From IMG/VR virus record IMGVR_UViG_3300033070_001123: a stretch of DNA of 64,000 bases, one strand, 5' to 3'. The notes under the pieces were generated by a model, which ran no database searches, was not told where the DNA came from, and saw only the letters and a list, made by a program, of their open reading frames with translations. Both the position numbers and the translations under genes were made by a program. Origin of the DNA: a virus. Lineage: Duplodnaviria > Heunggongvirae > Uroviricota > Caudoviricetes. The stretch's first letter is position 1. Every line of letters starts with the position of its first letter. This document shows positions 32,461-56,496 of the stretch, piece by piece.

Positions 32461-35400
32461 TTATCTTCTAAAAGTCTGTCTTAGATCCACGTTTGGATCT
32501 TCCTGAGCGAGTTTGTTCGCCTTATCTAACTTGAACAAACTCTGTATGGAATCCTTCAATTCCTCACCAATTTTTCTTTGGTTACTACGCTCAGAGATTA
32601 CTAAAGGCTTTTCTGAACCTTTCGCAACGGTGTCAAGTCCTTTCTTGGAAGCTCCAAAGAGGGCAGTTTCAAGATCCTTGAGGTCAGAAGGCTCGTAACG
32701 AGCAAGCTTCTCTATTTCAGAAGCAAGCTTGTCAACGGAAATCATTCCCGCCTTGAGCTTACGACCCGCAACTCTTGTAGCAGCCTCTTTCTTAGCCGCC
32801 AAGGACTCTGCATCGCCACCAGCAATGACCGTTCCCTTATGCGCCGTTTGCTTTTCAGGCGCATTCTTTTCATTCTTATCATACTTAGCGTTCGTTCCGC
32901 CGCCAGCAGGAATGCTTGGAGCATCCTTCTCAGCCTTCGGTACGCTTACTAATGTTTCTTTTTCATGTCCCATGAAGCTAGAATCTCCAGCTTCAACCTT
33001 GCCAATATCAGCAGACTCCTGAGGAGTTATTGGATTACCGCTCTTTGGATGATCCTTGTTAGCTGCGTATGGCTTTGTATCTCCGTCTTCAGAAACAGGA
33101 GCAGCCTTTTCAAGCTTCTTGTCCGAAGCGGTCTTTGTTGCATTCAAGATTCTTTCAGCAAGAGCAGAAGTTCTAGCCTTGCTAGAAGCAGACTTACCCG
33201 CTCCTTGCGTTCCGCCAGTCATTTCATGCTCCTTCTCTGAGGTATAACCAAGTTCTTTCTCATGACCCATTTCGCCACCGCCAGCCTCAAAGCTAGCCTT
33301 TGGCTTGCTGTTGTCATATCCAGCGTCTTTTTCGCCGCCCATTGTGGCGTCTCCGCTGAATACTTCTGGATCCTTAGCGTCAAACTTTTCCTCATTGCCC
33401 ATAGTTCCGCCGTCCTTAACCTTGCCGAAATCTTCGGTATGGTCTTGAACGTTCTTATGAGTTACTTCCTTGGCAATCTTGCCTTGAGAAGCAAGAACCT
33501 TCATAACGCTGGACAAGTCAAGATTGATTTCGCCGGAGCTAGAAATCTTGCCCTTCCTAAATGCGTTTGTTGCAGACTCGGCCTGAGCCATAAGCTTGAA
33601 CTCCTCTTTATCTTCTGAACCTTCTTCGCTGTCATTCGAGAAGTCGCTAGAAGAATCCTCTTTTTCTTCTGAATTTTCTTCAGAAGGCTCGGAAGATTCA
33701 CCTTCGCCCTCAGAAGATTCGCCTTCAGAAGACTCGCCACCAAACGGATTAGAAGAAGGCTCTTCAACAGAAACCTCAGACTCGCCAGTTTCAGGAGCGC
33801 CTCCCATGTCGCCGCCCTCTGGGGCAACTTCAACAGAAACATCTTCCTTAAGTTCAACTGGGTTTGAGTCAACTACACCAGGCGCTTCTTGAACAGCGTC
33901 TTGAACAGCGTCAAGAGCGCCGCCGACCGCAGAACCAACTTCTTGAGTTGCGTCTACAGCAGTTTCAAGAGCTTGGTCAGCAGCTTGGTCTACACCTTCG
34001 GCAACTTCGCCAGGAAGGGAGATTGTTGCAGTTCCATCAAGAGGAGCGTTGTGATGAGGCTCGGCAGCAGGATTCTCTCCCTTTGCCATATCTATAGCAG
34101 CGTCAAACTGCTCTATAACATCAAGAGGGAGTTCGATTGTAATAGTTCCCGCCATTGGGTCGCCACCACCAAGTTCTCCTCCTACATCCCCTCCAACATC
34201 GCCACCCATATCTCCGCCCATATCGCTTGCAAACGGATCTACGTCGCCTCCAAGTTCACCGCCCATATCGCCGCCCGTGTCTCCCTCAGGAGATGGAACG
34301 CCGTCAGTCGGGGACGGAGGAACTTCAGAACCGCCAGAAAGCTCGTCAGCAAGATGATCTTCAAACTGAGCATACTTAGCCTTGAGTTGGTCGCAAACAA
34401 AGCAAGCTTGCTTCATGGAGAACTTTCTAGAGCGTACAAAATCTTCTACGCAAGTAACCATAAGGTCTTCGTTCTTCCATATAGAAGCGAGCTTGATAGC
34501 AACGTCATTAGCATAAACGCCAGCGGTAGAAAGCTTCTGGCAAACACAGTCTGCAAGATTCTTTCCTTCGCATGGACCGCTCATTGCAAGAGCATTTTCG
34601 CCATACTTACGAGCAATCTTCTCTCGGCAAGTTTCGATTGGGAACTTACCTTCAAATGCTGCTGTCTTCTTGAGGCCCGACAAAACAGAACTCTTAGAAG
34701 CTGTCTTGACAGGAGAAAGAAGACCCTTATCCTTCATAGCCATGATTGCGTCACCCTTATCGAAGAGCATCATGGAATCAAAAGTATCTTCGCTAATACC
34801 AGCGGACTTGAGGGCCTTCATGAAGGCGCTCTTCTTACGACGGCAGCTTTCGCAACCGCGAGTAAGAGGCTTCGCTTCAAATCGCCATTCAGCGAATACA
34901 GCCTTCTTTCCGCCCTTATCTACACCAGCAACATGAACTTCATAAGTAGCGCCTGTATCCAAGCACAAGAACTTATTATTGCTGATCTTCATTACGCTTG
35001 TTGAGCCAGTGTAAGGACTGATAGAACCGAGGCCCCATTCAATACCCTTAGCCTTTGCGTCTTCAGCAGCCTTCTTAAGCATTGCTGGGTTCAAACGAGT
35101 CATAGCAGCAACTGGCAAGCTTGCAGGCTCTTCGGTTTCTGGAAGAGCAAAACCTTCGCCGCCCTCATCGCCACCAAGTCCAGCCTCACCAGCTTCTTCG
35201 CCCTCGCCTTCGCCAGAGTCAAGCAAACCAGGATACTTAGTAATTTCAAGCTCAACCTTATAAGCAAACTCAGCGGAGCAGTTACCGCACTTACCCTTAC
35301 CGTCTAGAACGTCAACGTCGCTAGAACCGCATACTGGGCAAATAGTACCCGGTGGCTTTGGTTGCATATCGCCTTCACCGCCGCCCATCATATCATCTTC

Positions 35401-38400
35401 GCCAGCGCCAAGCTCATCGCCAGGTCCGCTTAAGCTTTCAGCGGCAGGAGCGCCTCCCATTCCGGCGTCAGCGCCAGGCATGGTTGCTCCCATTCCGCCA
35501 GCAGGACCGCCGCCTCCCATACCGCCACCCATCTGTCCGCCCATCATCTGGGCTTCCTTAAGAAGGTTGGCTCTGTTAGCAGAACGAGCAGTCTTATTTG
35601 TTCCTTGAGGCTTCTGCGTTGCAGTCTTGAACTGCCCGCTCAAAACAGAAGCAAAAGCCTTCTTCTCTGCGTCCGAGCAAGATCCCTCTTCCTTGCAGTC
35701 AGCCTCAAAGATTCCAGCTTCCTTGTCCAACTTGACGTTAGTAACAACGAATGGAACTTCGATATGGCTCTTTGCGAAAGTAAAGAGAGCATTCATGAAT
35801 TCTGTTTGATTGTCTGGGCTTACCTTGACATCTTCTGTAAGGGTTCCGCAAATCTTATAAAGACCGTCTTCTGGACGATCAAGTTCAGCAAAGGCTTGAC
35901 GGAAAGCGTCTTCTTTGCTTACAACTGTTTCTTCAGAAGAATCTTCAGTAGAAGCGAGCTTGGTATGAGCCAAAGTCTCAGCAGCAGCAAAAGCCTTCTT
36001 ATCAGAAGCAACAAACTTGATTGCGTCAACAAAATCCTCAGCCTTGAGGTATCCAATGTTATCGCCCATAGAAGCCAAGAGAGCGTCAACGCTTCTAACC
36101 TTGCTACCGCTAGTGGAAGCTACCTTAGCAAAGTAGTTCTTGCGATTTCTTTCAGCAAGACGAGCCTTAACCTTGACAGGGGATGCGTTGATAAGAGCAA
36201 GATATCCAGCCTTGATAGAAGAGAACGGAGAAGAAGAAATCTTGCTTACAGCCGCAGAAACCTCGGCAGGAGTAAGGTTGTAATGAGCAATCGCGTCGGC
36301 AACTGCATTGGAAGCGGCCTTAACCAAATCCTTAGCAGACGAAGCCCAACGAGCAGAATCGGTCTTTCCTTCTGGAGAAGCCTTCTTCTGTTCGTCAAGC
36401 TGTGCTTGAATTGTAACTTCAGGAGCAGTCCACTTATGAGACTTCTGCAAAGACTCTAACTGAGCCTGAGTTGTCTTTTCTGTGTAATCCTTACTAATAG
36501 AAGTAGAAACTCTGCGGCTCATTTCTGTCCACTGAGCTTCGGTAATAACCTCTGGGTAGCTATCCCAACGAGCAATATCATCATGCTCAATCGAATCAAG
36601 CTGAGCTTGGGTAATAACTTCAGGAGCATTACCCTTGCGAAGCTGATTGTCGTCAGAGGTTGTATCATTAACTGGCTTAAGCTCGCCGTCACCGTCGAGT
36701 TGAGCCTGTGTCGTTACGGTTGGAGCCTTGTCTTCTCTAGGGTGAAGAGGGCCAGCATTATCAAGTTGCTTCTGAGTGGTAACTTCCAACTGGGAAGCCT
36801 CTCCTCCAGCTATCTTCGTGGTTTTTTGTGCAGACATATTAACTCCTGATTCTTTCTGATATTGACTTAAAACAATCTTAGCAGCCTCTTGAGGATTTGA
36901 GGAAGCAAGGGCCTTTATTTCATCGCCAAATTCTTCAGCAGAAGCCCAGCTTACAAGCTTATTATCTTTGAACTTTCCGAAAACTAGACCGGAACCTTCT
37001 ACAGTGGCAACAACAACTCTTGTGTCGCCGTTTACAAATTCAGCAATATGTTCAGATTCAGCCACTTCCTTACTCCTTTGTGCTAGCAGAACGATTGAAG
37101 CGCGCAATGCAGAGCTAACACTGGCTAGCTTACTGCTAATATTCTCGCCTTGCTTCAAAAATTCCTTCTTTAATTCTTCAGATGCTCCAACAAAACTTGG
37201 TCTTGTAACACTTCCCAATCCAGCCATTGAGCCAGATTGAGGGCTTCCCTGAGGGGCTGCTTGGGGTTGAGGCGACTGAGTTAAGCTCTGAGCGCCTTGT
37301 CCAACTTGACTTGGATTAGATACTTGCTGAGCAGCGCTTGCGCCTGTCATTGAAGGGTCTAAAGACATAACATTTCCAAGAGCAACAGCCTGCTCTGGAG
37401 GAGACGGAAGTTGGGCGTAACCCATTTCCGTTAGTTCGTCAGTAAGAGATTGAACTTTAGCAAGTTGCTCAACAAGATCGCTTACATAATCTAGCTGAAT
37501 TTGCTGTTTTTGAGCCATCATCGAACGAGCAACATGCTCCATAAGATTCATGGCTTGAGTAAGAGCTTGAAGCTCTGCCTTGCCAGCAGTCTTTTCTAGC
37601 GAACCGTCTTTCATTGTATCAACGGCACCGCTAAGTCTCGAAGCAACCTTCCTCAACTCTTCAATCTTATCAGCAACCTTTGTCTTTACATTATCAAGAT
37701 TGAGAATATCACAAACCAAACAATCATGGCATGCTGGATTTACAACAAATGAATCCTCGATAAACTTGATATCATAATTCCATTCATATACTTTTGCTTC
37801 TTTATGAATAAGTTCGTGTTCTTCGTTCTTTTTCTTGCCATCTAAAGGGCATGGGTCTGTAGGCTTACAAGGGCTATCATGATATTTACAATCATATTTG
37901 CCGCTAATTTTCCTATTTTTACCACCCTTTATATGAGTGCAGAACTCGTCTGCTGTATGGGCTTTATTATGGCAGATTGAACAGATAGAATAAGTAACTT
38001 GAGCGCCCATTGACGTACCAGTAATGTATCCTTCTTCGATACCTCTAGCAAGCCTTGGATAAGCGGCTCTATCAACCATATTGATACAATAAACGCCTTT
38101 AGAAGGTTCGTCATACCAAGAGTGAACAACCTTACCTCTTGCGTTCTCTACATTATCATTTTGATGATTTACAAAGACAGGAACACCAACGAAGGTATGA
38201 GCAGCTTTCTTAAGTTCTTCTTCAGAAAAACAATCGCCGTTATCATTTACTTCGTTTGCCTTAATAGCAAATACCTTAACAAATAGATTGTCTGGATTCT
38301 TCTCAATTGCTGCTTGTATATCAAATCCGCCAAGATCTGTTTTCTTGGTTTTATCAATAGAAGCAACTTTAATACGAGAAGTATTGTAGTAATCCCATGC

Positions 38401-38469
38401 GCCTCCCTTAGGAACATGAAGAGCCTCAACGCTCATCTGAGTATTAGTTTTTGCTCGTTTTTCAAACAT
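32461..38469 (-). CDS. giant prohead protease-scaffold fusion (2002 aa)
   Basis: N-terminal domain with NDNGDCFSEEEL, PVFVNH (His) and ITGTSMG (Ser), as in HK97/assemblin-fold prohead proteases; followed by low-complexity acidic regions, Cys-rich modules and repeats; canonical position between portal and capsid. Confidence 0.8.
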   Translation of the reverse strand: MFEKRAKTNTQMSVEALHVPKGGAWDYYNTSRIKVASIDKTKKTDLGGFDIQAAIEKNPDNLFVKVFAIKANEVNDNGDCFSEEELKKAAHTFVGVPVFVNHQNDNVENARGKVVHSWYDEPSKGVYCINMVDRAAYPRLARGIEEGYITGTSMGAQVTYSICSICHNKAHTADEFCTHIKGGKNRKISGKYDCKYHDSPCKPTDPCPLDGKKKNEEHELIHKEAKVYEWNYDIKFIEDSFVVNPACHDCLVCDILNLDNVKTKVADKIEELRKVASRLSGAVDTMKDGSLEKTAGKAELQALTQAMNLMEHVARSMMAQKQQIQLDYVSDLVEQLAKVQSLTDELTEMGYAQLPSPPEQAVALGNVMSLDPSMTGASAAQQVSNPSQVGQGAQSLTQSPQPQAAPQGSPQSGSMAGLGSVTRPSFVGASEELKKEFLKQGENISSKLASVSSALRASIVLLAQRSKEVAESEHIAEFVNGDTRVVVATVEGSGLVFGKFKDNKLVSWASAEEFGDEIKALASSNPQEAAKIVLSQYQKESGVNMSAQKTTKIAGGEASQLEVTTQKQLDNAGPLHPREDKAPTVTTQAQLDGDGELKPVNDTTSDDNQLRKGNAPEVITQAQLDSIEHDDIARWDSYPEVITEAQWTEMSRRVSTSISKDYTEKTTQAQLESLQKSHKWTAPEVTIQAQLDEQKKASPEGKTDSARWASSAKDLVKAASNAVADAIAHYNLTPAEVSAAVSKISSSPFSSIKAGYLALINASPVKVKARLAERNRKNYFAKVASTSGSKVRSVDALLASMGDNIGYLKAEDFVDAIKFVASDKKAFAAAETLAHTKLASTEDSSEETVVSKEDAFRQAFAELDRPEDGLYKICGTLTEDVKVSPDNQTEFMNALFTFAKSHIEVPFVVTNVKLDKEAGIFEADCKEEGSCSDAEKKAFASVLSGQFKTATQKPQGTNKTARSANRANLLKEAQMMGGQMGGGMGGGGPAGGMGATMPGADAGMGGAPAAESLSGPGDELGAGEDDMMGGGEGDMQPKPPGTICPVCGSSDVDVLDGKGKCGNCSAEFAYKVELEITKYPGLLDSGEGEGEEAGEAGLGGDEGGEGFALPETEEPASLPVAAMTRLNPAMLKKAAEDAKAKGIEWGLGSISPYTGSTSVMKISNNKFLCLDTGATYEVHVAGVDKGGKKAVFAEWRFEAKPLTRGCESCRRKKSAFMKALKSAGISEDTFDSMMLFDKGDAIMAMKDKGLLSPVKTASKSSVLSGLKKTAAFEGKFPIETCREKIARKYGENALAMSGPCEGKNLADCVCQKLSTAGVYANDVAIKLASIWKNEDLMVTCVEDFVRSRKFSMKQACFVCDQLKAKYAQFEDHLADELSGGSEVPPSPTDGVPSPEGDTGGDMGGELGGDVDPFASDMGGDMGGDVGGDVGGELGGGDPMAGTITIELPLDVIEQFDAAIDMAKGENPAAEPHHNAPLDGTATISLPGEVAEGVDQAADQALETAVDATQEVGSAVGGALDAVQDAVQEAPGVVDSNPVELKEDVSVEVAPEGGDMGGAPETGESEVSVEEPSSNPFGGESSEGESSEGEGESSEPSEENSEEKEDSSSDFSNDSEEGSEDKEEFKLMAQAESATNAFRKGKISSSGEINLDLSSVMKVLASQGKIAKEVTHKNVQDHTEDFGKVKDGGTMGNEEKFDAKDPEVFSGDATMGGEKDAGYDNSKPKASFEAGGGEMGHEKELGYTSEKEHEMTGGTQGAGKSASSKARTSALAERILNATKTASDKKLEKAAPVSEDGDTKPYAANKDHPKSGNPITPQESADIGKVEAGDSSFMGHEKETLVSVPKAEKDAPSIPAGGGTNAKYDKNEKNAPEKQTAHKGTVIAGGDAESLAAKKEAATRVAGRKLKAGMISVDKLASEIEKLARYEPSDLKDLETALFGASKKGLDTVAKGSEKPLVISERSNQRKIGEELKDSIQSLFKLDKANKLAQEDPNVDLRQTFRR
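36395..36790 (-). repeat. six peptide repeats (P)-E-V-(T/I)-T-Q-A-Q-L-D in the protease-scaffold
   Basis: EVTTQKQLD, PTVTTQAQLD, PEVITQAQLD, PEVITEAQWT, EKTTQAQLE, PEVTIQAQLD. Confidence 0.85.
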
Positions 38470-40354
38470 TTTCGTTCAAACTCCTAATAATTCTCTTAGC
38501 CAGGCTAGACGCTTGAGCGTCAGGATGATCAGGTCCAACATCTTCAACCGGAGGGCGAAGAGGAGGAGGTTGCTTAATAGGCTTTATCGGATCTCTTCCT
38601 ACAAACTGATTAAACGCTTTGTCTGCTCTTTGAACACCTTTTGATTCTGGACTAAGATTCGGTAGCGGATCTTGTTCAGTTAGATTTCCTTCATTATCTT
38701 CAACAATTCTACCTCCCTCGCCAACGATAATTTTCTTCATCTCTACAACTGCGGCAGAAAGAGAAGGTAATCCGCTTCTAACTTCTCTCCAAGGAGAAAG
38801 GATAAGCTTCTTTTGTCCAAGCTTAGTTTCGTAATATCTTTCGCTAGCCATCATTCTTGGTATAGATATTTGTTTTGCAACAACGACAAATGATTGTCTG
38901 TTCGTAACAACAGAACCTCCCCAAAACTCGGGTTCTTCATTTGGAACGTCCTTATATTGAACCATATCTTGCTTACCAACAGTCTTTGCTTGACCAACAT
39001 TGCGGCCTGTTGAAAAATCGGGACCAGCCATGTAAATAATGAAGCCTTCTAAAGCTGTATGAGAGTTTTGAGCCTTGACAATACCGCCATTCTCGTCAAA
39101 AGAATAACGATCAGTCTTTGTGTCAAGCCATTGTTTCAGTTGTTTCAATGCAGGAACAGAATAAGCAAATTCTTCTTTATTCTTCGGGTTCATTATCTTT
39201 TGAACCGTATTCTCGTCATCTACTGAATAAACAAACTTATATCCGCTTGCAACCTCAGAAACATCAAGGTCTTCACCCTGAGCCTGAGCGGTTACTCTAT
39301 AAACCTTACCAAGCGTATTTTTATTAGCTAGAGAGGTTACTTGTTCTTGCGATAAATAAAGCTTCTCGCCAGTAACTCTTTCAACCCTCTCGCCTGTTTC
39401 TTTGTTAATAGCTGGACGACCGCCTGCTCCATATCTTATCTTTTTCTGAAGATACATTGCGCCTGATTCTGGATCTGCAAAAATTCCCCAAATAAATTTA
39501 GCTTGCTCAGGGCTGTTTTTGATAATCATATCAGCATTATTGACGTAACGTATATTCAAAGACTGAGGGTTGAACTGAACGGCAGCAGCCTGCTCGTCAG
39601 GAACAAGGCCTTCTACAGGAGAGACATAAACAGCGCTACGATTCATAATGATAGGATCATTGAAGAATTTCTTCATCGTAATCGTATTCGTAGTAACGGT
39701 TGAATCAAAAACATTTGTAACGCCATGAACGTTTACAATGCCAAATGTAAAACCCTCGCCAGACGGAACAACTTGAAAGTTTCCATTAGTCGAGTTAGGA
39801 TACTCTTTCCCACCAACATTCTCTTGAATCTGACGGGGTATCTTGTTATATTTTTGCGATACATGATACTGAAGACCATTTGCAGCCAAATCTTGATAAG
39901 CATAGCCAAAAATAGAAAACCAATGCTTAGAACCAATACTCTTGTCTATCTTATTTCCGCCAGAAAAGCCTGAAGCGCTCGAAGGAAGCTGTAAGCCATA
40001 CTCTCTCGCAAACTGCGCTGTCTGTAAAAGCTCAGGACGCTCTCTTTGAAGATCTTTAATCTCAGAATCACCAATCAATCGATCTTCAGCATAAGCAATA
40101 CGAAGCATACCAGAGTATTCGTTTGACCTAGCAGCAGGAAACCTCTTAAAAGCCCTATCGAACTCGGCTATTTGCCTCTGTATACTTTGCTTTACAACAT
40201 CTGGTAACTTAGAAAGATGTTGCTTAAGTCTATTTCTATCAAATATATGAAAATCAAGACTTCGATTCTTGATATTGATAGAGCCAGGCATAGCAGGCAT
40301 ATCCGCCTGCTTTAACAAAAGACTACTAATGATTGACTTTGGATCACTACTCAT
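38462..40354 (-). CDS. hypothetical head-module protein
   Basis: 630 aa; ATGA-coupled; LLKQAD motif near the N-terminus. Confidence 0.8.
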   Translation of the reverse strand: MSSDPKSIISSLLLKQADMPAMPGSINIKNRSLDFHIFDRNRLKQHLSKLPDVVKQSIQRQIAEFDRAFKRFPAARSNEYSGMLRIAYAEDRLIGDSEIKDLQRERPELLQTAQFAREYGLQLPSSASGFSGGNKIDKSIGSKHWFSIFGYAYQDLAANGLQYHVSQKYNKIPRQIQENVGGKEYPNSTNGNFQVVPSGEGFTFGIVNVHGVTNVFDSTVTTNTITMKKFFNDPIIMNRSAVYVSPVEGLVPDEQAAAVQFNPQSLNIRYVNNADMIIKNSPEQAKFIWGIFADPESGAMYLQKKIRYGAGGRPAINKETGERVERVTGEKLYLSQEQVTSLANKNTLGKVYRVTAQAQGEDLDVSEVASGYKFVYSVDDENTVQKIMNPKNKEEFAYSVPALKQLKQWLDTKTDRYSFDENGGIVKAQNSHTALEGFIIYMAGPDFSTGRNVGQAKTVGKQDMVQYKDVPNEEPEFWGGSVVTNRQSFVVVAKQISIPRMMASERYYETKLGQKKLILSPWREVRSGLPSLSAAVVEMKKIIVGEGGRIVEDNEGNLTEQDPLPNLSPESKGVQRADKAFNQFVGRDPIKPIKQPPPLRPPVEDVGPDHPDAQASSLAKRIIRSLNENV

Positions 40355-40794
40355 GCCTTAACATGCTCCGGTATATCTGCATTCACAAGAGACTCTCTGT
40401 TATACGGAACTTGACCCTTTGGAACAGGAGTACCCCATCTTTGACTTGCGTAAATAAGCGCACCTTTCATTGTTGGAAAATACTCTCCATAAGGGCTATA
40501 TGTCTTTGTATCAGGATCTTTTGTAAACTCTTCAATAGGAATCTTTTTGATACCTGCAAAGAAAACCTTACCTACATTATGTTGTATAGAAGGACCAACA
40601 ACAACATAATAAATTGAGTTTGTTGTATAATCATGTCCTTCCCATCTATAGTAAGAGCCAGGACCAACTTGTTCTTCGAACTTTTCCTTAAGGGACTTTG
40701 ACCTTTCTCGGTATATTTCTTCCCACTTAATACCGCGGTCCTTTATTCGTTTACGACCCGCAGTTTTTTCCAAGTTGTAAACTAAATCGTTCAT
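40351..40794 (-). CDS. hypothetical head-module protein
   Basis: 147 aa; starts MNDLVYNLEKTAG; ATGA-coupled to the portal gene. Confidence 0.8.
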   Translation of the reverse strand: MNDLVYNLEKTAGRKRIKDRGIKWEEIYRERSKSLKEKFEEQVGPGSYYRWEGHDYTTNSIYYVVVGPSIQHNVGKVFFAGIKKIPIEEFTKDPDTKTYSPYGEYFPTMKGALIYASQRWGTPVPKGQVPYNRESLVNADIPEHVKA

Positions 40795-43064
40795 CCTTGC
40801 TTAGCTCCATTGTCCGTGATATACTTAGAAACGACACATCCTTCAAAAGGACTAAACCCAACAGGTTTATAGTTCGTATTTTCTCCTGCTTGTGCCTTCT
40901 TGGACAAAGCTTTCTTTTCCTTTGACGCCTCTTCGACTTCTTTACGAACAACTTGCTCAACTTTATCTAAGTGTTCGCCAATAGCTTGTTCAGTAAATCG
41001 CAAAACCCTCCAGCCATAGGAAGCAAGAGTCATATCTCTTTCTTTATCCTTCTGTTTATCTTCAACAGAAGAATGCCACTTTTCGCCGTCTACCTCAATA
41101 TCAACACCAAGCTCAGGAATTGCAAAATCCATAAGATAGAAATTGGAATCGCTTGGAACTGGTTGCTTATACTGAGCAAACAATCTAAAAGGCAACTTCA
41201 TGGATAGAAGTGTTCTATACATCTTTGATTCAGGCTTAGTTAACTGTATAGTTGTTGGTCTTACAGTCTGCATTTCGCTTTCTTTAGCTTTAGGAGCCTT
41301 GCCTCTTCTATAAATCTTCCCGTCCCCTCCGCCTGCGGCTACGCCGGGAGCGCCTCCCATACCTCCGCCCATTCCCCCTCCCATACCTCCGCCCATTCCG
41401 CCCATGCCTCCACCCATGCCACCCATGCCGCCCATACCGCCGCCCATGCCGCCCGTTGGGTCCATGCCAGGAGCGCCGCCCATGCCGCCCGTTGGGTCCA
41501 TGCCAGGAGCGCCGCCCATGCCGCCGCCACCCAGGCCGCCACCCAGGCCGCCGCCGCCCATAAGTTGACCGTTTTGCATGGCTTGTACTTGTTCGTTTCT
41601 AATTCTTTCTGTTTCTAGATCATAGTCCAAATCAAACTCTTCCAAAAGAGTCTGAGCAGAAATTAGACCGCTCTGCTGCATCTGTAAGAACATTTGAAGC
41701 TGATTAGTATTGTCTCTAAGCCTAAGATCTTCCCATTTAACTTTCGGGAACAAATAAACCGTTTCTCCAAATTCTTCAGAAGCCTCTTCATCAATAAAGC
41801 CTTGCATCTTAGCAACAGGAAGGAAAATGTGCTTCTCAATCCATTGAGCAAGCTCGTTTCTCCAAGACTCCAAACGACGGATCATAACCTCAACACCAAC
41901 CTGAGCGGAGTTATAGCCAGCCATCTCTCCATTCAAAAGAGTTTGATTGAGCATGAGACCGTCCAAGATTTCTTTACCAACATATTCAAGTTCTTGATTA
42001 ATGTTGTGTATCTTGCCGCTTGCTCCATACCATTCGTAATCAAAGTTATTATGAGTTACAATGGTAAGATTAGGGTCGTTAGCGACCGCAGCAAGCTGAG
42101 CAGATACGTCCGCAATTGCGTCATCGTCTGCTGGCCTCTCGTCCGAACCAACCTTAACAACTCTAACCGGAAGTATGAGTCTTTCAGCAACAATCCAGTT
42201 TGCTGTCATAAGCTTTGTTTTGTATGCCAAAACAGTAAACAATCTACGAAGAAGAGATTCTCCATAAGTTCCATAAGGGCTTCCGCCATGCTTTACATGG
42301 CTCGTAACTCTATTAGAAAGCAGAATAGGCCTCTTAGCCATAATCTGAACTTTGATGTTATCTGGAATTTGATCATACAAAAACTTAGGTTGCTTTGTTT
42401 GAATAATTCTTTGAAGCTCTTCATCTGGCAAAAGAACAATCTGAGGCTCTTGCGAAATAGGAGTCTTCATTACCTCAATCCAATCTGGATTAAGAACGGT
42501 TAGTTTACTTATAGAGCCGTCAGGGTGATTGCATGGCTCATTCTTTTCAGAATCAATGCCAGTACCCTTACAATGAGGACACTCAATTTCGGTCATTACG
42601 AAAACATCGCCAAGAAGAAAACGCTGATGACTTACCATTCTAAGCCAGTACATCAACTCTATTTTCTCAATAAGCCTCTCGAAGAAACGTAATACGCTCT
42701 TCTTCTTGCATTCAAGTTTTAGACCGTTAATGGGGAACTGCGAGTAAAAATCTATACCAGCAGCAACCTTTGGTTCGTTTTCATAATAGAACCTCGCCCA
42801 TTGATAGACTTCTTTTCTCTTGCTTGCAATCTGCCAATTCTGAGGAGTATGCAAAGGCGAAAAGAACATGGGCTGAGCCATGATAACGTTAGCACCTGAT
42901 CCCGCAAACTGAGCAGCCTTTGTAATTGGAACGCTAACAACGCTAGAAGTAGAATACGGCTTAGCTGTTGCGTCTCCGTCCTTCATAACAACACCCTTAG
43001 CAGAAGCTATCTTACTAACAGCTTGCTTATTCGGGAGTTGCATCTTGATTGGTTTATCTGCCAT
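40791..43064 (-). CDS. portal protein with a Zn-finger insert, Gly/Met linker and C-terminal DUF559/Vsr-like endonuclease domain
   Basis: Portal-like core (ARFYYENEPKVAAGIDFY, PYGESLLRRLF, ELAQWIEKHIFLPVA); CPHCKGTG insert; C-terminal LMDFAIPELGVDIEVDGEKWHS...DKERDMTLASYGWRVLRF. Confidence 0.8.
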   Translation of the reverse strand: MADKPIKMQLPNKQAVSKIASAKGVVMKDGDATAKPYSTSSVVSVPITKAAQFAGSGANVIMAQPMFFSPLHTPQNWQIASKRKEVYQWARFYYENEPKVAAGIDFYSQFPINGLKLECKKKSVLRFFERLIEKIELMYWLRMVSHQRFLLGDVFVMTEIECPHCKGTGIDSEKNEPCNHPDGSISKLTVLNPDWIEVMKTPISQEPQIVLLPDEELQRIIQTKQPKFLYDQIPDNIKVQIMAKRPILLSNRVTSHVKHGGSPYGTYGESLLRRLFTVLAYKTKLMTANWIVAERLILPVRVVKVGSDERPADDDAIADVSAQLAAVANDPNLTIVTHNNFDYEWYGASGKIHNINQELEYVGKEILDGLMLNQTLLNGEMAGYNSAQVGVEVMIRRLESWRNELAQWIEKHIFLPVAKMQGFIDEEASEEFGETVYLFPKVKWEDLRLRDNTNQLQMFLQMQQSGLISAQTLLEEFDLDYDLETERIRNEQVQAMQNGQLMGGGGLGGGLGGGGMGGAPGMDPTGGMGGAPGMDPTGGMGGGMGGMGGMGGGMGGMGGGMGGGMGGGMGGAPGVAAGGGDGKIYRRGKAPKAKESEMQTVRPTTIQLTKPESKMYRTLLSMKLPFRLFAQYKQPVPSDSNFYLMDFAIPELGVDIEVDGEKWHSSVEDKQKDKERDMTLASYGWRVLRFTEQAIGEHLDKVEQVVRKEVEEASKEKKALSKKAQAGENTNYKPVGFSPFEGCVVSKYITDNGAKQG
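41441..41525. repeat. 36-bp tandem repeat (two full copies plus a partial) encoding GGMGGAPGMDPT within the portal Gly/Met tract
   Basis: CGCCCATGCCGCCCGTTGGGTCCATGCCAGGAGCGC repeated directly. Confidence 0.85.
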
Positions 43065-47057: not shown

Positions 47058-48332
47058 CTAAGGTTTTCTTGGAGCAAACTTACCTTTGTTTCTTGGTTGT
47101 TGCGGACGACCTCCGGGTGCTGCTGGAGGAGTAGTTCCTGGAGTAGCGGGAGCAGGGTTGTTAATTCCTGGTCCTGTAATAGAACTAGAAGAAGGGCCTC
47201 CTGATGGACCGCTAAAAGTCGATCCCGTTGGCATTGTTCCAATAGGATTACCTGCTGGCGCAGCGGGAGCAGCCCCTCCTAACGGATTAGAAGATGCTGC
47301 TGGATTAACTCCAGGCACTGCGGGCGGCGTTCCGCCTGCTGGAGAACCGCTTGGAGCGGCTGGAGCAGAAGGAGCGCCTCCCGATGGAGAACCGCCATAA
47401 TTACCTCTCAGTATAGAATTCAAAGAAGTTAGAGTATTAGGCCAGTTCTGCATTACGCCTTGAATATTTTTTGCCTTTATCAATCCTGAAACATTACTAA
47501 GATGTTGAATCGCTGTTGAAGCTTGTTGTTTTTGCTGAGGAGTTGAATTTGGATCATTCGCAACTGTATTTAGCTCTTGCGATAAAGAAGAAATGTTACC
47601 AGAAAGCTGTCCCCAAGTCTGATTAGCTTGTCCATAAGCTTTCTTGAATTCTTCAAAGTTGCTATTCAATTGCTTAATAGATGAACTTAACTTTCCAGTA
47701 TAAGCCTGATTACTACCCCAGTTCTTAACGCCTTGTCCAACGCCCTTAAAAAAGTCCATTATACCAGCTTCTTTTACCATTTCTTCAGCAGCGGCTGTAA
47801 GCTTTTCAGCTATTTCTTGGTTAGAAACAAGTCTAGACGCAATATCCATGATTTCATTGCTTGCGGAAATCATAAGCTCATTTGGTTCATTTGCAACTTC
47901 TTCAATAGAAGCATAAACAGCAGAACCAATATCTAAACCTTCCGCAACCTTCTCTTCAACCTTGCTAGCAATCTTTGCGTTGACTTCTTGAGAGAAAGCA
48001 TGAAGCTCAGAACCAACCTTAATGTTACTTTCTGAGCCTGCGTATTTGTCCCACTTAGAGCCGTCATTGTTCAATGACTCAACGTATTCTTTATGGCATT
48101 CAGTCCAAACCTGTTGAGCAGACTTATTTGGAGAAGAAGTTCTCTTTTGCCTATAGCAATTACCCCAACATCTGGAGTTTCTAATAGCATAGCCCTGTAT
48201 ACCAACATACTGAGCCGTTTTGACATCAAAAGTCGTATTTGCAACCTTATCAACCTTATCTGCTATAGCTCGTAAGCCTTGAGCGTCAAGCGCTTCTGCT
48301 GCTTCAACAAGCAATCGAATGATATTATCCAT
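47058..48332 (-). CDS. hypothetical head-module protein (coiled coil, Pro/Gly tail)
   Basis: 424 aa; FDVKTAQ followed by a Cys motif RCWGNCY...TECH; MVKEAG. Confidence 0.8.
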   Translation of the reverse strand: MDNIIRLLVEAAEALDAQGLRAIADKVDKVANTTFDVKTAQYVGIQGYAIRNSRCWGNCYRQKRTSSPNKSAQQVWTECHKEYVESLNNDGSKWDKYAGSESNIKVGSELHAFSQEVNAKIASKVEEKVAEGLDIGSAVYASIEEVANEPNELMISASNEIMDIASRLVSNQEIAEKLTAAAEEMVKEAGIMDFFKGVGQGVKNWGSNQAYTGKLSSSIKQLNSNFEEFKKAYGQANQTWGQLSGNISSLSQELNTVANDPNSTPQQKQQASTAIQHLSNVSGLIKAKNIQGVMQNWPNTLTSLNSILRGNYGGSPSGGAPSAPAAPSGSPAGGTPPAVPGVNPAASSNPLGGAAPAAPAGNPIGTMPTGSTFSGPSGGPSSSSITGPGINNPAPATPGTTPPAAPGGRPQQPRNKGKFAPRKP

Positions 48333-48347
48333 TTTGAATAGGCTCCT

Positions 48348-49337: not shown

Positions 49338-49432
49338 AGAATTACTTACGTCTTTGAAAAGATTATCCCTTCTTAGGTAGGAGTTTTGGACGCCTTTTTG
49401 TAAAACTAAATGACCTTAAGCGGAGGCTCCAA

Positions 49433-50673: not shown

Positions 50674-50677
50674 GGAG

Positions 50678-52303: not shown

Positions 52304-52661
52304 TCTTAACTCTCAAATACCATCCAACAACTTCTTCTTTTGAAGCTTTCTTCTCTAAGGCAAAAGAATCGTCATTGAGAATCATTACCTTCAAAGCTTG
52401 AGCGCCATTCTCTGTAACCTTGAGGTACTTACCCTGATCTTCGACAAGACCAGACTCTACCATTTTCTTGAGTTCGCCAGACGCTAAATTAGCAGGCTTC
52501 AAAAACTTACGGTTCGAGAGCTTTTCCGTATCAGACCATATAGCATACAACTGCTTATTGATGCCGTCGCCCCTATTGACAAGTCTTGCTCTTGCGTCTT
52601 GCAGCGCTGGCATTATTTGTATGAGTATATCAATCAAAGATTGTTGAGCAGTTTTTTGCAT
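52278..52661 (-). CDS. hypothetical protein with a possible winged-helix segment
   Basis: Start reassigned to MQKTAQQ, just after the upstream stop; LKKMVESGLVEDQGKYLKVTENG resembles a wHTH wing. Confidence 0.65.
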   Translation of the reverse strand: MQKTAQQSLIDILIQIMPALQDARARLVNRGDGINKQLYAIWSDTEKLSNRKFLKPANLASGELKKMVESGLVEDQGKYLKVTENGAQALKVMILNDDSFALEKKASKEEVVGWYLRVKNADLTSTD

Positions 52662-52662
52662 A

Positions 52663-52902
52663 TTAGAACCCCACTTGAACTCCGAATGAACGAAGCTTCT
52701 TTCGTATTTCCATTTGTATAGAATCAAGAGCCATAACATCAGCCTGAGAAAGTTGCGTTATACCATTTAGAGATAATGTTGTAAAAGCCTGCTGAAATGT
52801 TCTAACCCTCGGATCTATTTGATTAGGTTGATTAGGGTTCTTGAGCCTTTTAGGATCAAACTTCAAAGTTTGCATTTGAGATGTTTTATACCAATTACTC
52901 AT
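52663..52902 (-). CDS. hypothetical protein
   Basis: 79 aa starting MSNWYKTSQ; ATGA-coupled. Confidence 0.75.
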   Translation of the reverse strand: MSNWYKTSQMQTLKFDPKRLKNPNQPNQIDPRVRTFQQAFTTLSLNGITQLSQADVMALDSIQMEIRKKLRSFGVQVGF

Positions 52903-54249: not shown

Positions 54250-54252
54250 TTA

Positions 54253-54858: not shown

Positions 54859-54869
54859 GTGCTTTTTCC

Positions 54870-55310
54870 TTATATGTTTCTAAGTCTCTTTCTAAGACCT
54901 CTAAGTACACCATCGCCACCATTCAAATTGAATGGCTTTCTGTCCCTATTATCGTCTATCTGCCGAGTAACCGTCTGATTTCTTCCTAAAGCTGCGTCCG
55001 AACCAGAAGAGCCTCCTTGACCTTGATAATCGTCATGCAATTCCAGGCCATAATCAGTTACAATACCAGTTCCATTATCGTTCTTTGGACGACCTTCATC
55101 GTCTGTAATAAAAGGTTGGTCCGTAGGCCACTCTTTATTCTGAGAAAAAGGACCACCACCAGTTTCTCCTGGCCTTAAAAGATCATCGCCCGCACCACTA
55201 TTCGGTTTACCCTTTGATTTTCTATAAGGATCAATCAATAGGGGATCTGAAGGGTTGAATGCGGTTGGCGGATTCCTTCTAGCTGTTTTGGATAAGTTAA
55301 AAGGGAGCAT
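54870..55310 (-). CDS. hypothetical head-module protein
   Basis: 146 aa starting MLPFNLSKTARR. Confidence 0.75.
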   Translation of the reverse strand: MLPFNLSKTARRNPPTAFNPSDPLLIDPYRKSKGKPNSGAGDDLLRPGETGGGPFSQNKEWPTDQPFITDDEGRPKNDNGTGIVTDYGLELHDDYQGQGGSSGSDAALGRNQTVTRQIDDNRDRKPFNLNGGDGVLRGLRKRLRNI

Positions 55311-56496
55311 CTAATGTATCATCCTCTTGTGGATTTTGCGGTTCGATTGCATTATCAACAGGAGACTCAGGCTCACTTGGCGCTGTGGTTTGACCAATTC
55401 CTCCAGTATAAGAAACGTCTCTACTTGTTACTCCAGAAATACCAGACATAGGATCAGGGAAATCAAATCCAGAATCGTCATTTGGATCTACAGGAGCGTT
55501 TGGATCTGTAGGAGCATTTAAGTCTACAGGAGCGTTTGGATCGGTCATATCGTCTACAGGAGGCGAGAAACCGCTCTGTGCTGCCCAATAATGCTCATCG
55601 CCGCTAACTGTTGGATTTCCGTCCATAAAATCAGCCTCCCTATCCTGAGGATTAGCAGAAGGCTCTGGTGTTGGCGATGGAGGAACGTTAGGGTCAAATG
55701 GCGGATTATTAGGATCAGCAGAAAGAGGGTCTTCTGTTTGAGCTAAAGACATAAGAATACTTACCTTATCTTTATTGATCGCCGAAACAATCTCTTTCTC
55801 TGAAGCAGTAAGGCCTCTACCTTCGCTACTAGCCTTTAGGTAAATACCAAACAAAAGCTTGTCTGCACTCTTTAGAGAAGCGGTAATCTCAATTGGCTTC
55901 TCTTTCTTGTTCATTGGCTTTATGTCAAGCTCTTTACCAAGATGCTCTCTATTTGTTGCCGCATCAGTATCGTGAGGAAGACCGTCAAGATTTCCAAACC
56001 TATGAGGGCTATTTTGAAGTTGACTACCCTTCTCTGGTAAGTTAACCATAACTTTTGTTGGCTCGCCATCGAGTTGAGCGCCTACAAACTTATCCCAGAA
56101 AGAGGTATCCGCTCCCTTGTTTGCCTTTGAAAAAGCATCTCTAAACTTTCTATCGTTAGCATGGGCAAGGGCGTCAATTGGAGAAACTGTATAGTTATCT
56201 TCTCCGCCCTTGAACTGCCTATGAGGATACAATGGAGAATCAGAATCCTCTATCGCTCCTTCTGTTATCTTTTCAGAAACAGAGGCCTTACGGCGAACTT
56301 CGTTCAAAAGACCTTCATGAGTCTCTGGACTTTCGCCCAAAGAACGACGATCTGCCTCAAGAAGACCATTGATAGACTTGATGCTACCGCCTCCCTCTAG
56401 CGAAAGGTTATACTTCTTAGAATGAGACGGAACAGCAGCCGACTGAGGCGTTACGCTGTTATTGATTACCTGTGCTTTTTTCAAGTTAAAAGTCAT
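55297..56496 (-). CDS. hypothetical head-module protein
   Basis: Start reassigned to MTFNLKKAQ (SD GGAGG, 1 nt after the terL stop); acidic Pro-rich C-terminus. Confidence 0.8.
   Translation of the reverse strand: MTFNLKKAQVINNSVTPQSAAVPSHSKKYNLSLEGGGSIKSINGLLEADRRSLGESPETHEGLLNEVRRKASVSEKITEGAIEDSDSPLYPHRQFKGGEDNYTVSPIDALAHANDRKFRDAFSKANKGADTSFWDKFVGAQLDGEPTKVMVNLPEKGSQLQNSPHRFGNLDGLPHDTDAATNREHLGKELDIKPMNKKEKPIEITASLKSADKLLFGIYLKASSEGRGLTASEKEIVSAINKDKVSILMSLAQTEDPLSADPNNPPFDPNVPPSPTPEPSANPQDREADFMDGNPTVSGDEHYWAAQSGFSPPVDDMTDPNAPVDLNAPTDPNAPVDPNDDSGFDFPDPMSGISGVTSRDVSYTGGIGQTTAPSEPESPVDNAIEPQNPQEDDTLDAPF

What the first reader, a model, noticed from the sequence alone, without database searches (positions are those of the whole stretch)
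32461..56496. Module-wide K-x-A peptide signal: candidate protease-processing/cargo-tagging system for the phage head
Seen: otherwise unrelated ORFs between terL and the capsid gene share an extended motif (F/Y)-N/S/D-L/V-x(0-1)-K-x-A-(Q/G/S), often at the N-terminus or at a domain boundary. Examples: MTFNLKKAQ, PFNLSKTAR, VYNLEKTAG, YNLKKEAQ, FSLAKVAQ, FDVKTAQ, MQKTAQQ, MIRKQAQ, MSNWYKTSQ, LLLKQAD, ITKAAQ (portal), RVKKAQ. About two dozen K-x-A sites (KVAS, KTAG, KIAG, KLAS, KEAQ, KTAS) punctuate the 2002-aa protease-scaffold. The extended motif was not noticed in the fibres, glycosyltransferases, PhoH or actin. Known: T4 gp21 and phiKZ gp175 cleave many internal head proteins at a short consensus, and herpesvirus assemblin (same fold as HK97-type proteases) cleaves Ala-Ser. 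Inference: the encoded protease cleaves after K-x-A to mature a large set of internal head proteins, and the N-terminal motif may also act as a packaging tag. Caveat: a bare K-x-A is common by chance in K/A-rich proteins; the support is the extended consensus and its position.
Basis: partly seen in the sequence, partly recalled or inferred. Interest (0 to 1): 0.88.

Follow-up and report, generated by a model that had tools for sequence, protein, structure and literature searches.

The report
Lys-x-Ala cut-site code, megaphage head
The head-assembly proteins of this giant phage, a relative of Bacillus phage G, share a short Lys-x-Ala signal that is most likely where the phage's own herpesvirus-like head protease cuts them, so the head's contents could be predicted from sequence; no cut has been shown.

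Summary
In 20 minus-strand head-module proteins (32461-56496), K-x-A occurs 101 times against about 52 expected. K-x-A-[QGS] occurs 46 times against about 11. The controls A-x-K, K-x-x-A and K-A, and the 37 other proteins of the window, are flat. Eleven of the 20 head proteins carry K-x-A in their first 18 residues (1.9 expected).

The signal recurs in:
- Bacillus phage G head proteins that BLAST does not relate to those of the window;
- a mycobacteriophage protease-scaffold;
- 126 long members of the protease-scaffold family (3350 against 1620 expected).

In a 494-kb relative the enrichment is confined to the head module.

Sites sit at domain borders and in predicted flexible linkers. One boundary site keeps K-x-[A/S]-Q in 120 of 120 homologues while the middle residue varies.

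The enzyme candidate is the N-terminal domain of the 2002-aa protein. It has the assemblin/T4 gp21 fold, with invariant His102 and Ser153.

Best reading: K-x-A is the protease's P3-x-P1 cleavage code, cut after Ala. A longer [F/Y]-N-L-x-K-x-A-Q form marks non-scaffold head proteins. Cleavage, the exact bond and any packaging role are untested.

This scan reached the same reading on at least five other phage G-like genomes. It is a new variant of a known kind.

The parts
32461..38469 (-). 2002-aa protease-scaffold polyprotein. It carries 42 K-x-A sites. Twenty are K-x-A-[SQG], at residues 34, 274, 293, 447, 552, 695, 717, 782, 837, 916, 971, 1221, 1255, 1326, 1365, 1714, 1759, 1779, 1914 and 1986.
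   Evidence: K-x-A 42 against 20 expected
37690..38352 (-). Prohead serine protease core (residues 40-260), with invariant His102 and Ser153 (GTSMG) and an invariant Cys cluster
   Evidence: phrog_18299 E 2.7e-10; AF2 pLDDT above 90 over residues 45-255; VIA Z 10.1 to VZV protease and 10.0 to T4 gp21; invariant columns
38359..38373 (-). IKVAS site ahead of the protease core (residues 33-37); candidate N-terminal self-cleavage site
   Evidence: Ala36 is invariant in 61 family members; it lies in the pLDDT<50 segment 32-39
37582..37653 (-). RKVAS (273-277) and EKTAG (292-296) just after the protease core; candidate release sites between protease and scaffold
   Evidence: Both are kept in 6 of 6 relatives; Lys293 is nearly invariant; EKTAG lies in the pLDDT<50 segment 283-294, RKVAS in a helix of pLDDT 63-71
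56470..56496 (-). N-terminal tag MTFNLKKAQ of a 399-aa head-module protein. The true start is at 56496, not the upstream ATG at 56574.
   Evidence: GGGGAGGAA precedes the ATG and the gene abuts the terL stop; the relative G002 has MAFNLKKSQ
55278..55310 (-). N-terminal tag MLPFNLSKTAR of a 146-aa protein
   Evidence: G002 has MSKKLPFNLSKQAR
40756..40794 (-). N-terminal tag MNDLVYNLEKTAG of a conserved 147-aa protein
   Evidence: Kept in 7 of 7 relatives. In the 120 homologues examined, an N-terminal peptide of variable length (about 4-25 aa) mostly ends in K-x-A (105 of 120 have K-x-[ASG] there) directly before the conserved GRKRIKDRG block.
44428..44457 (-). First extended motif (SYFSLAKVAQ, residues 87-96) of the 407-aa protein
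   Evidence: A conserved island in a divergent region; Phe89 and Gln96 nearly invariant; lies in the low-confidence stretch 82-127 (pLDDT mostly below 50)
43954..43980 (-). Second extended motif (SYNLKKEAQ, residues 246-254), at the border of the conserved C-terminal region
   Evidence: 117 of 120 homologues keep the full motif and 120 of 120 keep K-x-[AS]-Q. P3 is K in 117/117, P2 takes 12 different residues, P1 is A 112 / S 5, P1' is Q 113. Lies in the low-confidence stretch 246-269 (pLDDT mostly below 50).
43507..43530 (-). Third copy (PYNWKEAS, residues 396-403), five residues from the C-terminus of the same protein
   Evidence: Asn398, Trp399 and Ala402 nearly invariant; kept in 7 of 7 relatives
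48210..48233 (-). TFDVKTAQ (residues 34-41) of the 424-aa protein
   Evidence: K-T/V-A-Q kept in 6 of 6 relatives, including the most distant one
52644..52661 (-). N-terminal MQKTAQ of a 127-aa protein (start revised to 52661)
   Evidence: G002 has MEKTAQQ
45475..45495 (-). N-terminal MIRKQAQ of a 258-aa protein. Relatives have K-Q/H/N-S/T at this place.
   Evidence: this protein has 7 K-x-A against 2.8 expected
42909..42929 (-). Portal PITKAAQ (residues 46-52), just ahead of the conserved portal core
   Evidence: PITK[AN][AS]Q is conserved while residues 1-45 vary. Phage G portal gp14 has RKMAS at 55-58, before the homologous core that starts at 65.
40301..40321 (-). LLLKQAD (residues 12-18) near the N-terminus of the 630-aa protein
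   Evidence: G002 keeps MLKQADMPAMPG
52876..52902 (-). MSNWYKTSQ, a K-x-S variant at the N-terminus of a 79-aa protein; weakly conserved

Best explanation
The window holds the head-assembly module of an uncultured megaphage related to Bacillus phage G. Its prohead serine protease is the first 260 or so residues of a 2002-aa protease-scaffold polyprotein.

Proposed mechanism:
- The protease recognises a short linear motif with fixed Lys at P3, a free P2 (beta-branched or hydrophobic preferred), and small Ala (rarely Ser) at P1.
- It cuts after the Ala, before Ser, Gln or Gly. A hydrophobic residue at P5 helps.
- Many minimal K-x-A-S/G sites in the linkers of the polyprotein let the protease free itself and chop the scaffold so that it can leave the shell.
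- Sites at the N-termini or domain borders of the portal and about ten other head-module proteins trim short propeptides.
- A longer form, [S-S]-[Y/F]-[N/D]-L-x(0-1)-K-x-A-Q, is found almost only on non-scaffold head proteins. It probably adds a docking element (F-N-L) to the cut site, as the capsid-targeting sequence of T4 internal proteins does.

Shown here: the enrichment, its restriction to head proteins, its conservation, its position in linkers, and the protease fold.

Inferred: that the motif is cleaved, by this protease, at the Ala-X bond, and that it helps packaging.
For: 1. Statistics in the window: K-x-A 101 against 52, K-x-A-[QGS] 46 against 11, hydrophobic-x-K-x-A 33 against 8.4. 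Controls and non-head proteins are flat.
2. N-terminal bias: 11 of 20 head proteins against 1.9 expected.
3. Replication in proteins BLAST does not relate. Only MCP, protease and portal of phage G match the window by BLAST, yet phage G gp4-gp21 show K-x-A 53 against 25.8, with Thr at P2 and Ser at P1', and gp1-3 plus gp22-43 show none.
4. Family level. The protease domain finds 2648 cluster representatives. In 126 long ones K-x-A is 3350 against 1620 expected, while A-x-K is 1687 and K-x-x-A 1614; 97% have a ratio above 1.3.
5. Logo from 3307 sites: [MLIF]-[ILV]-K-[VTLI]-A-[S>Q], with Pro and Gly depleted at P2 and P1'. Information falls off after P1'.
6. In mycobacteriophage Alice gp90 (1511 aa) K-x-A is also the top pair, 19 against 8.8.
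7. Whole 494-kb relative: K-x-A 688 against 655 genome-wide, but ratios of 1.45 and 1.72 in the two head-module bins. The extended motif occurs only 10 times in 611 ORFs, 6 of them in the head module.
8. Conservation: 59% against 37-44% for control pairs. At the border site of the 407-aa protein, P3 is K in 117/117, P1 is A/S, P1' is Q in 113, and P2 is free. In the 147-aa family the N-terminal peptide varies in length and mostly ends in K-x-A directly before the conserved block.
9. Structure proxies: IKVAS and EKTAG flank the protease core in pLDDT<50 segments. Motifs 1 and 2 of the 407-aa protein lie in low-confidence linkers (pLDDT mostly below 50).
10. Enzyme: assemblin/gp21 fold, Z about 10; invariant His102 and Ser153.
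11. A P3-x-P1 layout matches the known codes of this fold: T4 I/L-x-E, phiKZ S/A/G-x-E, and herpesvirus (V/L/I)-x-A|S (my own knowledge).
Against: - No direct evidence of any cut. No virion proteome or N-terminal data for this phage or a relative could be read; the one paper likely to hold phage G data (Gonzalez et al. 2020, J Mol Biol) is not held.
- About half of the 101 K-x-A triplets are expected by chance. Some lie in folded parts (for example residues 87-90 in a protease helix) and cannot all be sites.
- Several N-terminal examples are poorly conserved: MIRKQAQ becomes K-Q-S-D, and MKIKVAD and RVKKAQ are not kept.
- In the 147-aa family Lys is sometimes Leu or Thr.
- At a conserved C-terminal K-L-[A/Q]-[S/G] element of the polyprotein family, Gln often replaces Ala. 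That does not fit a small P1 pocket.
- The scissile bond is placed only by analogy and by the asymmetry of the logo.
- The 126 family members are homologues, so their counts are not fully independent.
Confidence: 0.7

Rival explanations
1. The motif is a docking signal only. It binds the capsid interior, the portal or the scaffold and recruits proteins into the prohead, but it is not cut.
For: The F-N-L sub-element is conserved at variable distance from K-x-A. Three copies flank one conserved region. Very short N-terminal peptides such as M-D-K-Q-A-G still keep K-x-A, which could mean the residues work within the mature protein.
Against: A docking-only role does not explain dozens of minimal K-x-A-S sites spread through the linkers of the scaffold polyprotein across the whole family. 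It does not explain the nearly invariant sites on both sides of the protease core. It also does not explain the protease-like shape of the logo: fixed P3 and P1, free P2, Pro excluded at P2 and P1'.
Confidence: 0.12
2. The motif is a cleavage site, but the cut is at another bond (after Lys, or after the Ser/Gln/Gly), or the enzyme is another protease, such as a host enzyme or a second phage peptidase like the zinc peptidase gp2 beside terL in phage G.
For: The bond was never observed. Phage G annotates a zinc-dependent peptidase in its head module.
Against: No second peptidase was detected in the window's head module. The enrichment follows the assemblin-fold protease family across phage G, mycobacteriophages and metagenomic megaphages. 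The logo carries its information on the non-prime side and drops after the residue following Ala.
Confidence: 0.1
3. The enrichment is a by-product of composition or structure, such as Lys/Ala-rich helices, coiled coils or internal repeats, or of a DNA-level motif. It would then have no signal function.
For: Head proteins are richer in Lys (8.5% against 5.4%) and Ala. Many are helical.
Against: The reversed and re-spaced controls A-x-K, K-x-x-A and K-A are flat, even in shuffles that keep local composition. The flanks of the sites differ from each other. Codon use at the sites is ordinary. Key sites lie in low-confidence linkers, not helices. P2 varies freely while P3, P1 and P1' stay fixed over 120 homologues.
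Confidence: 0.03

Closest known systems
Herpesvirus assemblin with its scaffold fusion (pUL26 / UL80a; MEROPS S21), release (R) and maturation (M) sites
   Same: Same fold (VIA Z 10.1 to VZV protease, 9.7 to pseudorabies). The protease is N-terminal to the scaffold in one polypeptide. The candidate self-release sites lie just after the protease core. The proposed cut is after a small Ala and often before Ser, in a P3-x-P1 layout. The herpes consensus is from my own knowledge.
   Different: P3 is Lys, not Val/Leu/Ile; [VLI]-x-A is not enriched here (113 against 101). The fusion is about 2000 aa, with dozens of candidate sites, Cys clusters and Gly/Met tracts. Many unrelated head proteins carry the motif. 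An M-site equivalent near the C-terminus is ambiguous.
Phage T4 prohead protease gp21 (MEROPS S77; PDB 5JBL), with I/L-x-E cleavage and the capsid targeting sequence of internal proteins
   Same: Same fold (Z 10.0). The consensus is a short P3-x-P1 motif. The scaffold and many head proteins are cut. N-terminal tags of about 10 residues end in the protease consensus.
   Different: The motif is K-x-A, not I/L-x-E; [LI]-x-E is 55 against 58.9 here. The protease is fused to the scaffold. The 297-aa MCP has no delta domain and only one K-x-A, at chance level.
phiKZ gp175 / SPN3US gp245 giant-phage prohead proteases (S/A/G-x-E)
   Same: Extensive processing of many head and ejection proteins in a jumbo phage. 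Candidate sites also recur inside propeptides.
   Different: The consensus differs; [SAG]-x-E is not significantly enriched here (150 against 135.5). The lineage also differs: the MCP and protease here group with phage G and the Bixzunavirus mycobacteriophages.
Bacillus phage G gp19 (head maturation protease) and its head module gp4-gp21
   Same: Nearest cultured relative: MCP 49-50% identical, protease core 48%, portal 30%. It shows the same K-x-A enrichment with Thr at P2 and Ser at P1'.
   Different: Phage G's protease is a separate 300-aa protein, not a 2000-aa fusion. By BLAST only MCP, protease and portal are shared. No cleavage consensus for phage G was found in the papers that could be read.

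Membership tests
Assemblin-fold prohead serine proteases (herpes S21, T4 S77, HK97 S78 and relatives) | Shared three-dimensional fold | tested here: met
   The AF2 model has pLDDT above 90 over residues 45-255. The top 50 Foldseek PDB hits listed are all herpesvirus proteases or T4 gp21 (E about 1e-3, prob 1.0). VIA Z is 10.1 (rmsd 2.4 A, 113 aligned) and 10.0 (2.9 A, 128 aligned), against 6.6 or less for unrelated MCE domains.
Assemblin-fold prohead serine proteases (herpes S21, T4 S77, HK97 S78 and relatives) | Conserved catalytic His, then Ser about 50 residues downstream | tested here: met
   His102 (NHQN) and Ser153 (GTSMG) are invariant in 61 family members. The spacing of 51 compares with T4 H85/S140. 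Residue-by-residue superposition on a solved active site was not obtained.
Assemblin-fold prohead serine proteases (herpes S21, T4 S77, HK97 S78 and relatives) | Match to a curated sequence family | tested here: inconclusive
   phrog_18299 'head maturation protease' E 2.7e-10 and phrog_2774 E 6.6e-32. Pfam Peptidase_S78_2 scores only 16.6 bits, below its cut-off of 24. No PDB chain is matched by sequence.
Assemblin-fold prohead serine proteases (herpes S21, T4 S77, HK97 S78 and relatives) | Gene lies between the portal and major capsid genes | tested here: met
   Portal 40791-43064, protease-scaffold 32461-38469, decoration-like 31858-32439, MCP 30803-31696, all on the minus strand.
Herpesvirus-type protease-scaffold fusion with R and M sites | Protease and scaffold in one polypeptide, with a self-cleavage site directly after the protease | tested here: inconclusive
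   The fusion is present and family-wide. The conserved K-x-A-S/G sites at 274 and 293 lie in or next to the low-confidence linker 283-294. Cleavage itself is untested.
Herpesvirus-type protease-scaffold fusion with R and M sites | Site near the C-terminus that releases a capsid-binding tail | tested here: inconclusive
   K-L-A-Q lies at 1986-1989, 13 residues from the end. The C-terminal 45 residues are conserved in the family and 53 of 85 long members have K-x-A there, but P3 and P1 vary.
T4-type capsid targeting sequence / short N-terminal propeptide | Short N-terminal peptide on unrelated head proteins that ends in the protease consensus | tested here: met
   11 of 20 head proteins against 1.9 expected. 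The tags are kept in relatives.
T4-type capsid targeting sequence / short N-terminal propeptide | The peptide is removed in the mature virion and is sufficient to target a foreign protein into the head | not testable with these tools
   Needs virion mass spectrometry and tag-fusion packaging experiments.
T4 / phiKZ Glu-specific cleavage code | Enrichment of I/L-x-E or S/A/G-x-E in head proteins | tested here: not met
   [LI]-x-E 55 against 58.9 (z -0.6); [SAG]-x-E 150 against 135.5 (z 1.5); K-x-A z 7.3.

The most novel reading that the evidence does not exclude
The extended element [S-S]-[Y/F]-[N/D]-L-x-K-x-A-Q is a portable two-part 'dock and release' signal. The F-N-L part and the K-x-A part together seat a cargo protein in the substrate groove of the scaffold-borne protease, so the enzyme itself acts as the packaging receptor. 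Activation then cuts the cargo loose inside the head. If so, the head cargo of phage G-like megaphages, including proteins encoded far from the head module (two candidates in the 494-kb relative), could be read from sequence, and foreign proteins could be loaded with a tag of about 10 residues.
Probability: 0.25. Interest if true: 0.75.

Novelty: new variant of a known kind. Interest (0 to 1): 0.6.

Why it matters
Prohead-protease cleavage codes are known by experiment for only a few phage lineages (T4, phiKZ/SPN3US, a few HK97-like phages) and for herpesviruses. This one would cover a very large, mostly uncultured lineage: 2648 protease cluster representatives at 50% identity. It includes phage G, long the largest cultured phage, and the easily grown Bxz1-type mycobacteriophages.

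If correct, a simple rule (K-x-A, plus the rarer F-N-L-x-K-x-A-Q) would allow three things:
- predicting mature protein ends;
- separating scaffold from cargo;
- finding head-delivered proteins encoded elsewhere in 300-500 kb genomes.

An Ala-X cut in a protease-scaffold fusion would also tighten the parallel between tailed phages and herpesviruses. Prohead-protease specificity has recently been tied to triggering of CBASS immunity, so knowing the code may also matter for defence sensing.

Tried and rejected
- Complex prediction of the protease core (residues 40-262) with the 41-residue stretch around SYNLKKEAQ gave no verdict: scores 0.52, 0.19, 0.14 against a mark of 0.32. It counts neither for nor against binding.
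- A profile search of PDB sequences found no related chain. The fold link rests on structure comparison only.
- Literature: 8 full-text searches and several papers were read. No published K-x-A or other cleavage consensus for phage G or its relatives turned up. Gonzalez et al. 2020 is not held, and the 2025 phage G multi-omics paper has no supplements held as text. Prior publication therefore cannot be excluded.
- No whole genome is held for the window. A 494-kb relative was used instead.
- DNA-level motif: rejected, because codon use at the sites is normal.
- Helical periodicity or local composition: rejected by the re-spaced and reversed controls and by local shuffles.
- Avoidance of K-x-A in non-substrates (MCP 1 against 1.2, TerL 2 against 5.0): numbers too small to claim.
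- A herpes-like M site near the C-terminus of the polyprotein: ambiguous.
- The extended motif inside polyproteins is only weakly enriched (17 against 4 in 150), so it is not the scaffold's main site type.
- A second search for relatives with the 399-aa protein returned only near-identical loci.

Full report
CONTEXT

The window is almost entirely minus-strand phage genes. The major capsid protein (30803-31696) is 49% identical to gp27 of Bacillus phage G, and more distantly related to the capsid proteins of a 485-kb uncultured phage and of Bixzunavirus (cluster C) mycobacteriophages.

The head module runs from the large terminase (56498-59521) down through:
- about 20 small and medium ORFs;
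- the portal (40791-43064);
- a 2002-aa ORF (32461-38469) whose first 190 or so residues match head-maturation protease families;
- a 193-aa decoration-like protein;
- the MCP.

Three plus-strand genes (49433-51973) interrupt the module.

Counts for 20 minus-strand head-module proteins:
- K-x-A 101 against 52.2 +/- 6.3 in per-protein shuffles.
- K-x-A-[QGS] 46 against 10.7 +/- 3.1.

Controls:
- A-x-K, K-x-x-A and K-A are at expectation. So are all patterns in the 37 other proteins of the window.
- Shuffling only within 10- or 20-residue windows, which keeps local Lys/Ala-rich patches, leaves z about 7 and about 11.
- An unbiased scan of all residue pairs at gaps 0-3 ranks K-x-A first among pairs that are not Gly/Met low-complexity, with or without the 2002-aa protein.
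- The T4 code [LI]-x-E (55 against 58.9), the phiKZ code [SAG]-x-E (150 against 135.5) and [VLI]-x-A (113 against 101) are not enriched. Hydrophobic-x-K-x-A is 33 against 8.4.
- Codon use at the sites equals the genes' general use and the middle codon is diverse, so this is a protein-level signal.

After correcting two starts (56496 and 52661, both with Shine-Dalgarno-like sequences and abutting the upstream stop), 11 of 20 head proteins carry K-x-A in their first 18 residues. The expectation is 1.9 +/- 1.3, and only 1 of 37 other proteins does so.

REPLICATION ELSEWHERE

Phage G. By BLAST only its MCP, protease (gp19) and portal match the window. Even so, its gp4-gp21 show K-x-A 53 against 25.8, with Thr favoured between K and A and Ser after A. 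The remaining proteins of the 32-kb stretch examined (gp1-3 and gp22-43) show 16 against 15.7.

Mycobacteriophage Alice. gp90 is a 1511-aa protease-scaffold fusion, and K-x-A is its top pair (19 against 8.8). One site, NNKTAG, lies directly after the protease domain.

The protease family. An exhaustive HMMER search with the protease core found 2648 cluster representatives at E <= 1e-3. Most of the best 150 are fusions of 1500-2700 aa. In the 126 that are at least 600 aa long:
- K-x-A is 3350 against 1620 expected;
- A-x-K is 1687 and K-x-x-A is 1614;
- 97% have a ratio above 1.3.

The logo from 3307 sites is [MLIF]-[ILV]-K-[VTLI]-A-[S>Q]. Pro and Gly are depleted beside the Ala, and information drops sharply one residue after the Ala. 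These proteins are homologues, so the counts are not independent. The scaffold parts are, however, highly divergent.

A whole relative genome. A 494-kb relative (CheckV completeness 98%) was fetched and 611 ORFs were called.
- Genome-wide, K-x-A is 688 against 655.
- The two 20-kb bins that hold the head module have ratios of 1.45 and 1.72 and the highest K-x-A-[SQG] counts, 15 and 23.
- The extended motif occurs only 10 times in the genome. Six are in the head module.
- Three of the other four are textbook copies (SSEYFNLSKEAQ, GSYFDLSKVSQ, SSSYFDITKIAQ) in two proteins of unknown function encoded 40-60 kb away.

CONSERVATION AND POSITION

In alignments with eight relatives (30-90% identity), the K and A of a K-x-A are jointly kept in 59% of cells, against 37-44% for control pairs.

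The 407-aa protein (43492-44715) is the clearest case.
- Its N-terminal 250 residues diverge freely, except for two islands: SSYF[DS]LxK[VFI][ASG]Q and [YF]NLxKxAQ. The second sits exactly at the start of the conserved C-terminal region.
- Among 120 database homologues down to about 30% identity, 117 keep the full motif at that border and all 120 keep K-x-[AS]-Q.
- At that site P3 is K in 117/117, P2 takes 12 different residues, P1 is A 112 / S 5, and P1' is Q 113.
- A third copy (F-N-W-K-E-A-S) is nearly invariant five residues from the C-terminus, so the conserved region is bracketed by motif copies.

In the 147-aa protein (40351-40794), 120 homologues have an N-terminal peptide of about 4-25 residues that mostly ends in K-x-A (105 of 120 have K-x-[ASG] there) directly before the conserved GRKRIKDRG block. 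F-N-L is often present, at variable spacing.

In the portal, PITK[AN][AS]Q precedes the conserved core. Phage G's portal has RKMAS at the equivalent place.

STRUCTURE PROXIES

AlphaFold2 on the first 340 residues of the polyprotein (61-sequence alignment):
- The core, residues 45-255, is confident.
- The only pLDDT<50 segments are 1-5, 32-39 and 283-294.
- Segment 32-39 holds IKVAS, with Ala36 invariant in the family. Segment 283-294 holds EKTAG, with Lys293 nearly invariant.

AlphaFold2 on the 407-aa protein puts motif 1 and motif 2 in the low-confidence linkers 82-127 and 246-269 (pLDDT mostly below 50), between helical parts.

THE ENZYME

- The top 50 Foldseek PDB matches listed for the model are all herpesvirus assemblins or T4 gp21.
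- VIA-align gives Z 10.1 (VZV protease) and 10.0 (T4 gp21), clearly above unrelated folds at 6.6 or less.
- His102 and Ser153 (GTSMG) are invariant.
- No second peptidase was found in the module.

INTERPRETATION

The simplest account is that K-x-A is the P3-x-P1 recognition code of this protease clade, with the cut after Ala. This follows the layout of T4 (I/L-x-E), phiKZ (S/A/G-x-E) and herpesviruses ((V/L/I)-x-A|S; my own knowledge).
- The polyprotein's many minimal sites would free the protease and fragment the scaffold.
- The sites on the portal and on about ten other proteins would remove short propeptides.
- The extended F-N-L-x-K-x-A-Q form is rare in polyproteins (17 against 4 in 150) but typical of the other head proteins. 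It may add a docking element, like the T4 capsid-targeting sequence.

Roughly 50 of the 101 triplets are excess over chance. Some, such as residues 87-90 inside a protease helix, cannot be sites.

WHAT IS NOT SHOWN

- That any bond is cut.
- Which bond is cut.
- That the tagged proteins are inside the head.
- That the tag directs packaging.

The complex prediction gave no verdict. No publication of this motif was found, but the phage G capsid paper most likely to hold mass-spectrometry data could not be read.

EARLIER FINDINGS OF THIS SCAN

At least five other phage G-like genomes were given the same reading by other agents. I re-tested the claim independently here and added four things:
- the family-wide count;
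- the 120/120 boundary site with three motif copies;
- the whole-genome specificity test;
- the mycobacteriophage extension.

VERDICT

It is a new variant of a known kind of system (a prohead-protease cleavage code with targeting-like tags), directly testable in phage G and in Bxz1-type mycobacteriophages.

Noticed in passing
window 40791-41240 (-), C-terminal part of the portal gene: The portal carries a C-terminal DUF559/Vsr-like endonuclease domain (Pfam PF04480, E 2.8e-9, residues 609-709). Most relatives match the portal only over residues 1-501, so the nuclease domain seems to be a variable addition. K-x-A sites at 717 and 722 follow it.
   Followed up: partly
L013 (IMGVR_UViG_3300035698_011774), portal and protease-scaffold ORFs: The most distant relative has intein-like insertions. 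The portal alignment shows an insert ending ...VVHNS, and its 2360-aa protease-scaffold ORF aligns from query residue 113 to subject residue 528. Several family members hit the protease core in 2-3 separate stretches, which suggests frequent inteins.
   Followed up: no
window 36394-36777 (-), polyprotein residues 565-692: Five or six copies of a second short repeat, (V/I)-T-(T/E)-(Q/E)-A-Q-(L/W)-(D/E/T), spaced 20-35 residues apart in the scaffold part. This is a separate candidate binding motif.
   Followed up: no
window 37720-37983 (-), protease core: Cys163, Cys166, Cys177, Cys247 and Cys250 are invariant in 61 family members. This suggests a structural zinc site inside the protease domain, which I do not know from T4 gp21 or the assemblins.
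   Followed up: no
window 53632-54249 (-): The two small ORFs, separated by an in-frame stop, correspond to one uninterrupted 206-aa ORF in the 494-kb relative (G002 391778-392398). The window copy is therefore split, read through, or carries an error.
   Followed up: partly
window 8819-8860 (-), N-terminus of the 1023-aa protein 5789-8860: This is the only non-head-module protein with an N-terminal K-x-A. MNNLVFMNLMKEAF resembles the tag LVYNLEKTAG, so this could be a head or ejected protein encoded elsewhere. It is only loosely kept in the relative.
   Followed up: partly
G002 329073-330767 and 347051-347608 (loci L043, L044): Two proteins of unknown function outside the head module of the 494-kb relative carry perfect extended motifs (SSEYFNLSKEAQ, GSYFDLSKVSQ; N-terminal SSSYFDITKIAQ). 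They are candidate head cargo. Pfam gives nothing significant.
   Followed up: partly
head-module proteins generally, e.g. polyprotein residues 974-1040 and 1400-1440: Gly/Met-rich low-complexity tracts: G-x3-G, G-G and M-x-G are the other top enriched pairs in head proteins and are absent elsewhere. One tract starts directly after the site LLKEAQ.
   Followed up: no
L001 (Bacillus phage G), gp5, gp9, gp10, gp13, gp17, gp20, gp38: Many phage G proteins start with a basic M-K-R-L-I-(K/S)-K-like leader, often running into K-x-A (MKRLISKTAA, MKRLIKKAS). This may be phage G's own version of the N-terminal tag.
   Followed up: no
window 56498-59521 (-): The large terminase is 1007 aa. The terminase family matches begin only near residue 437, leaving a long N-terminal extension of unknown function.
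   Followed up: no
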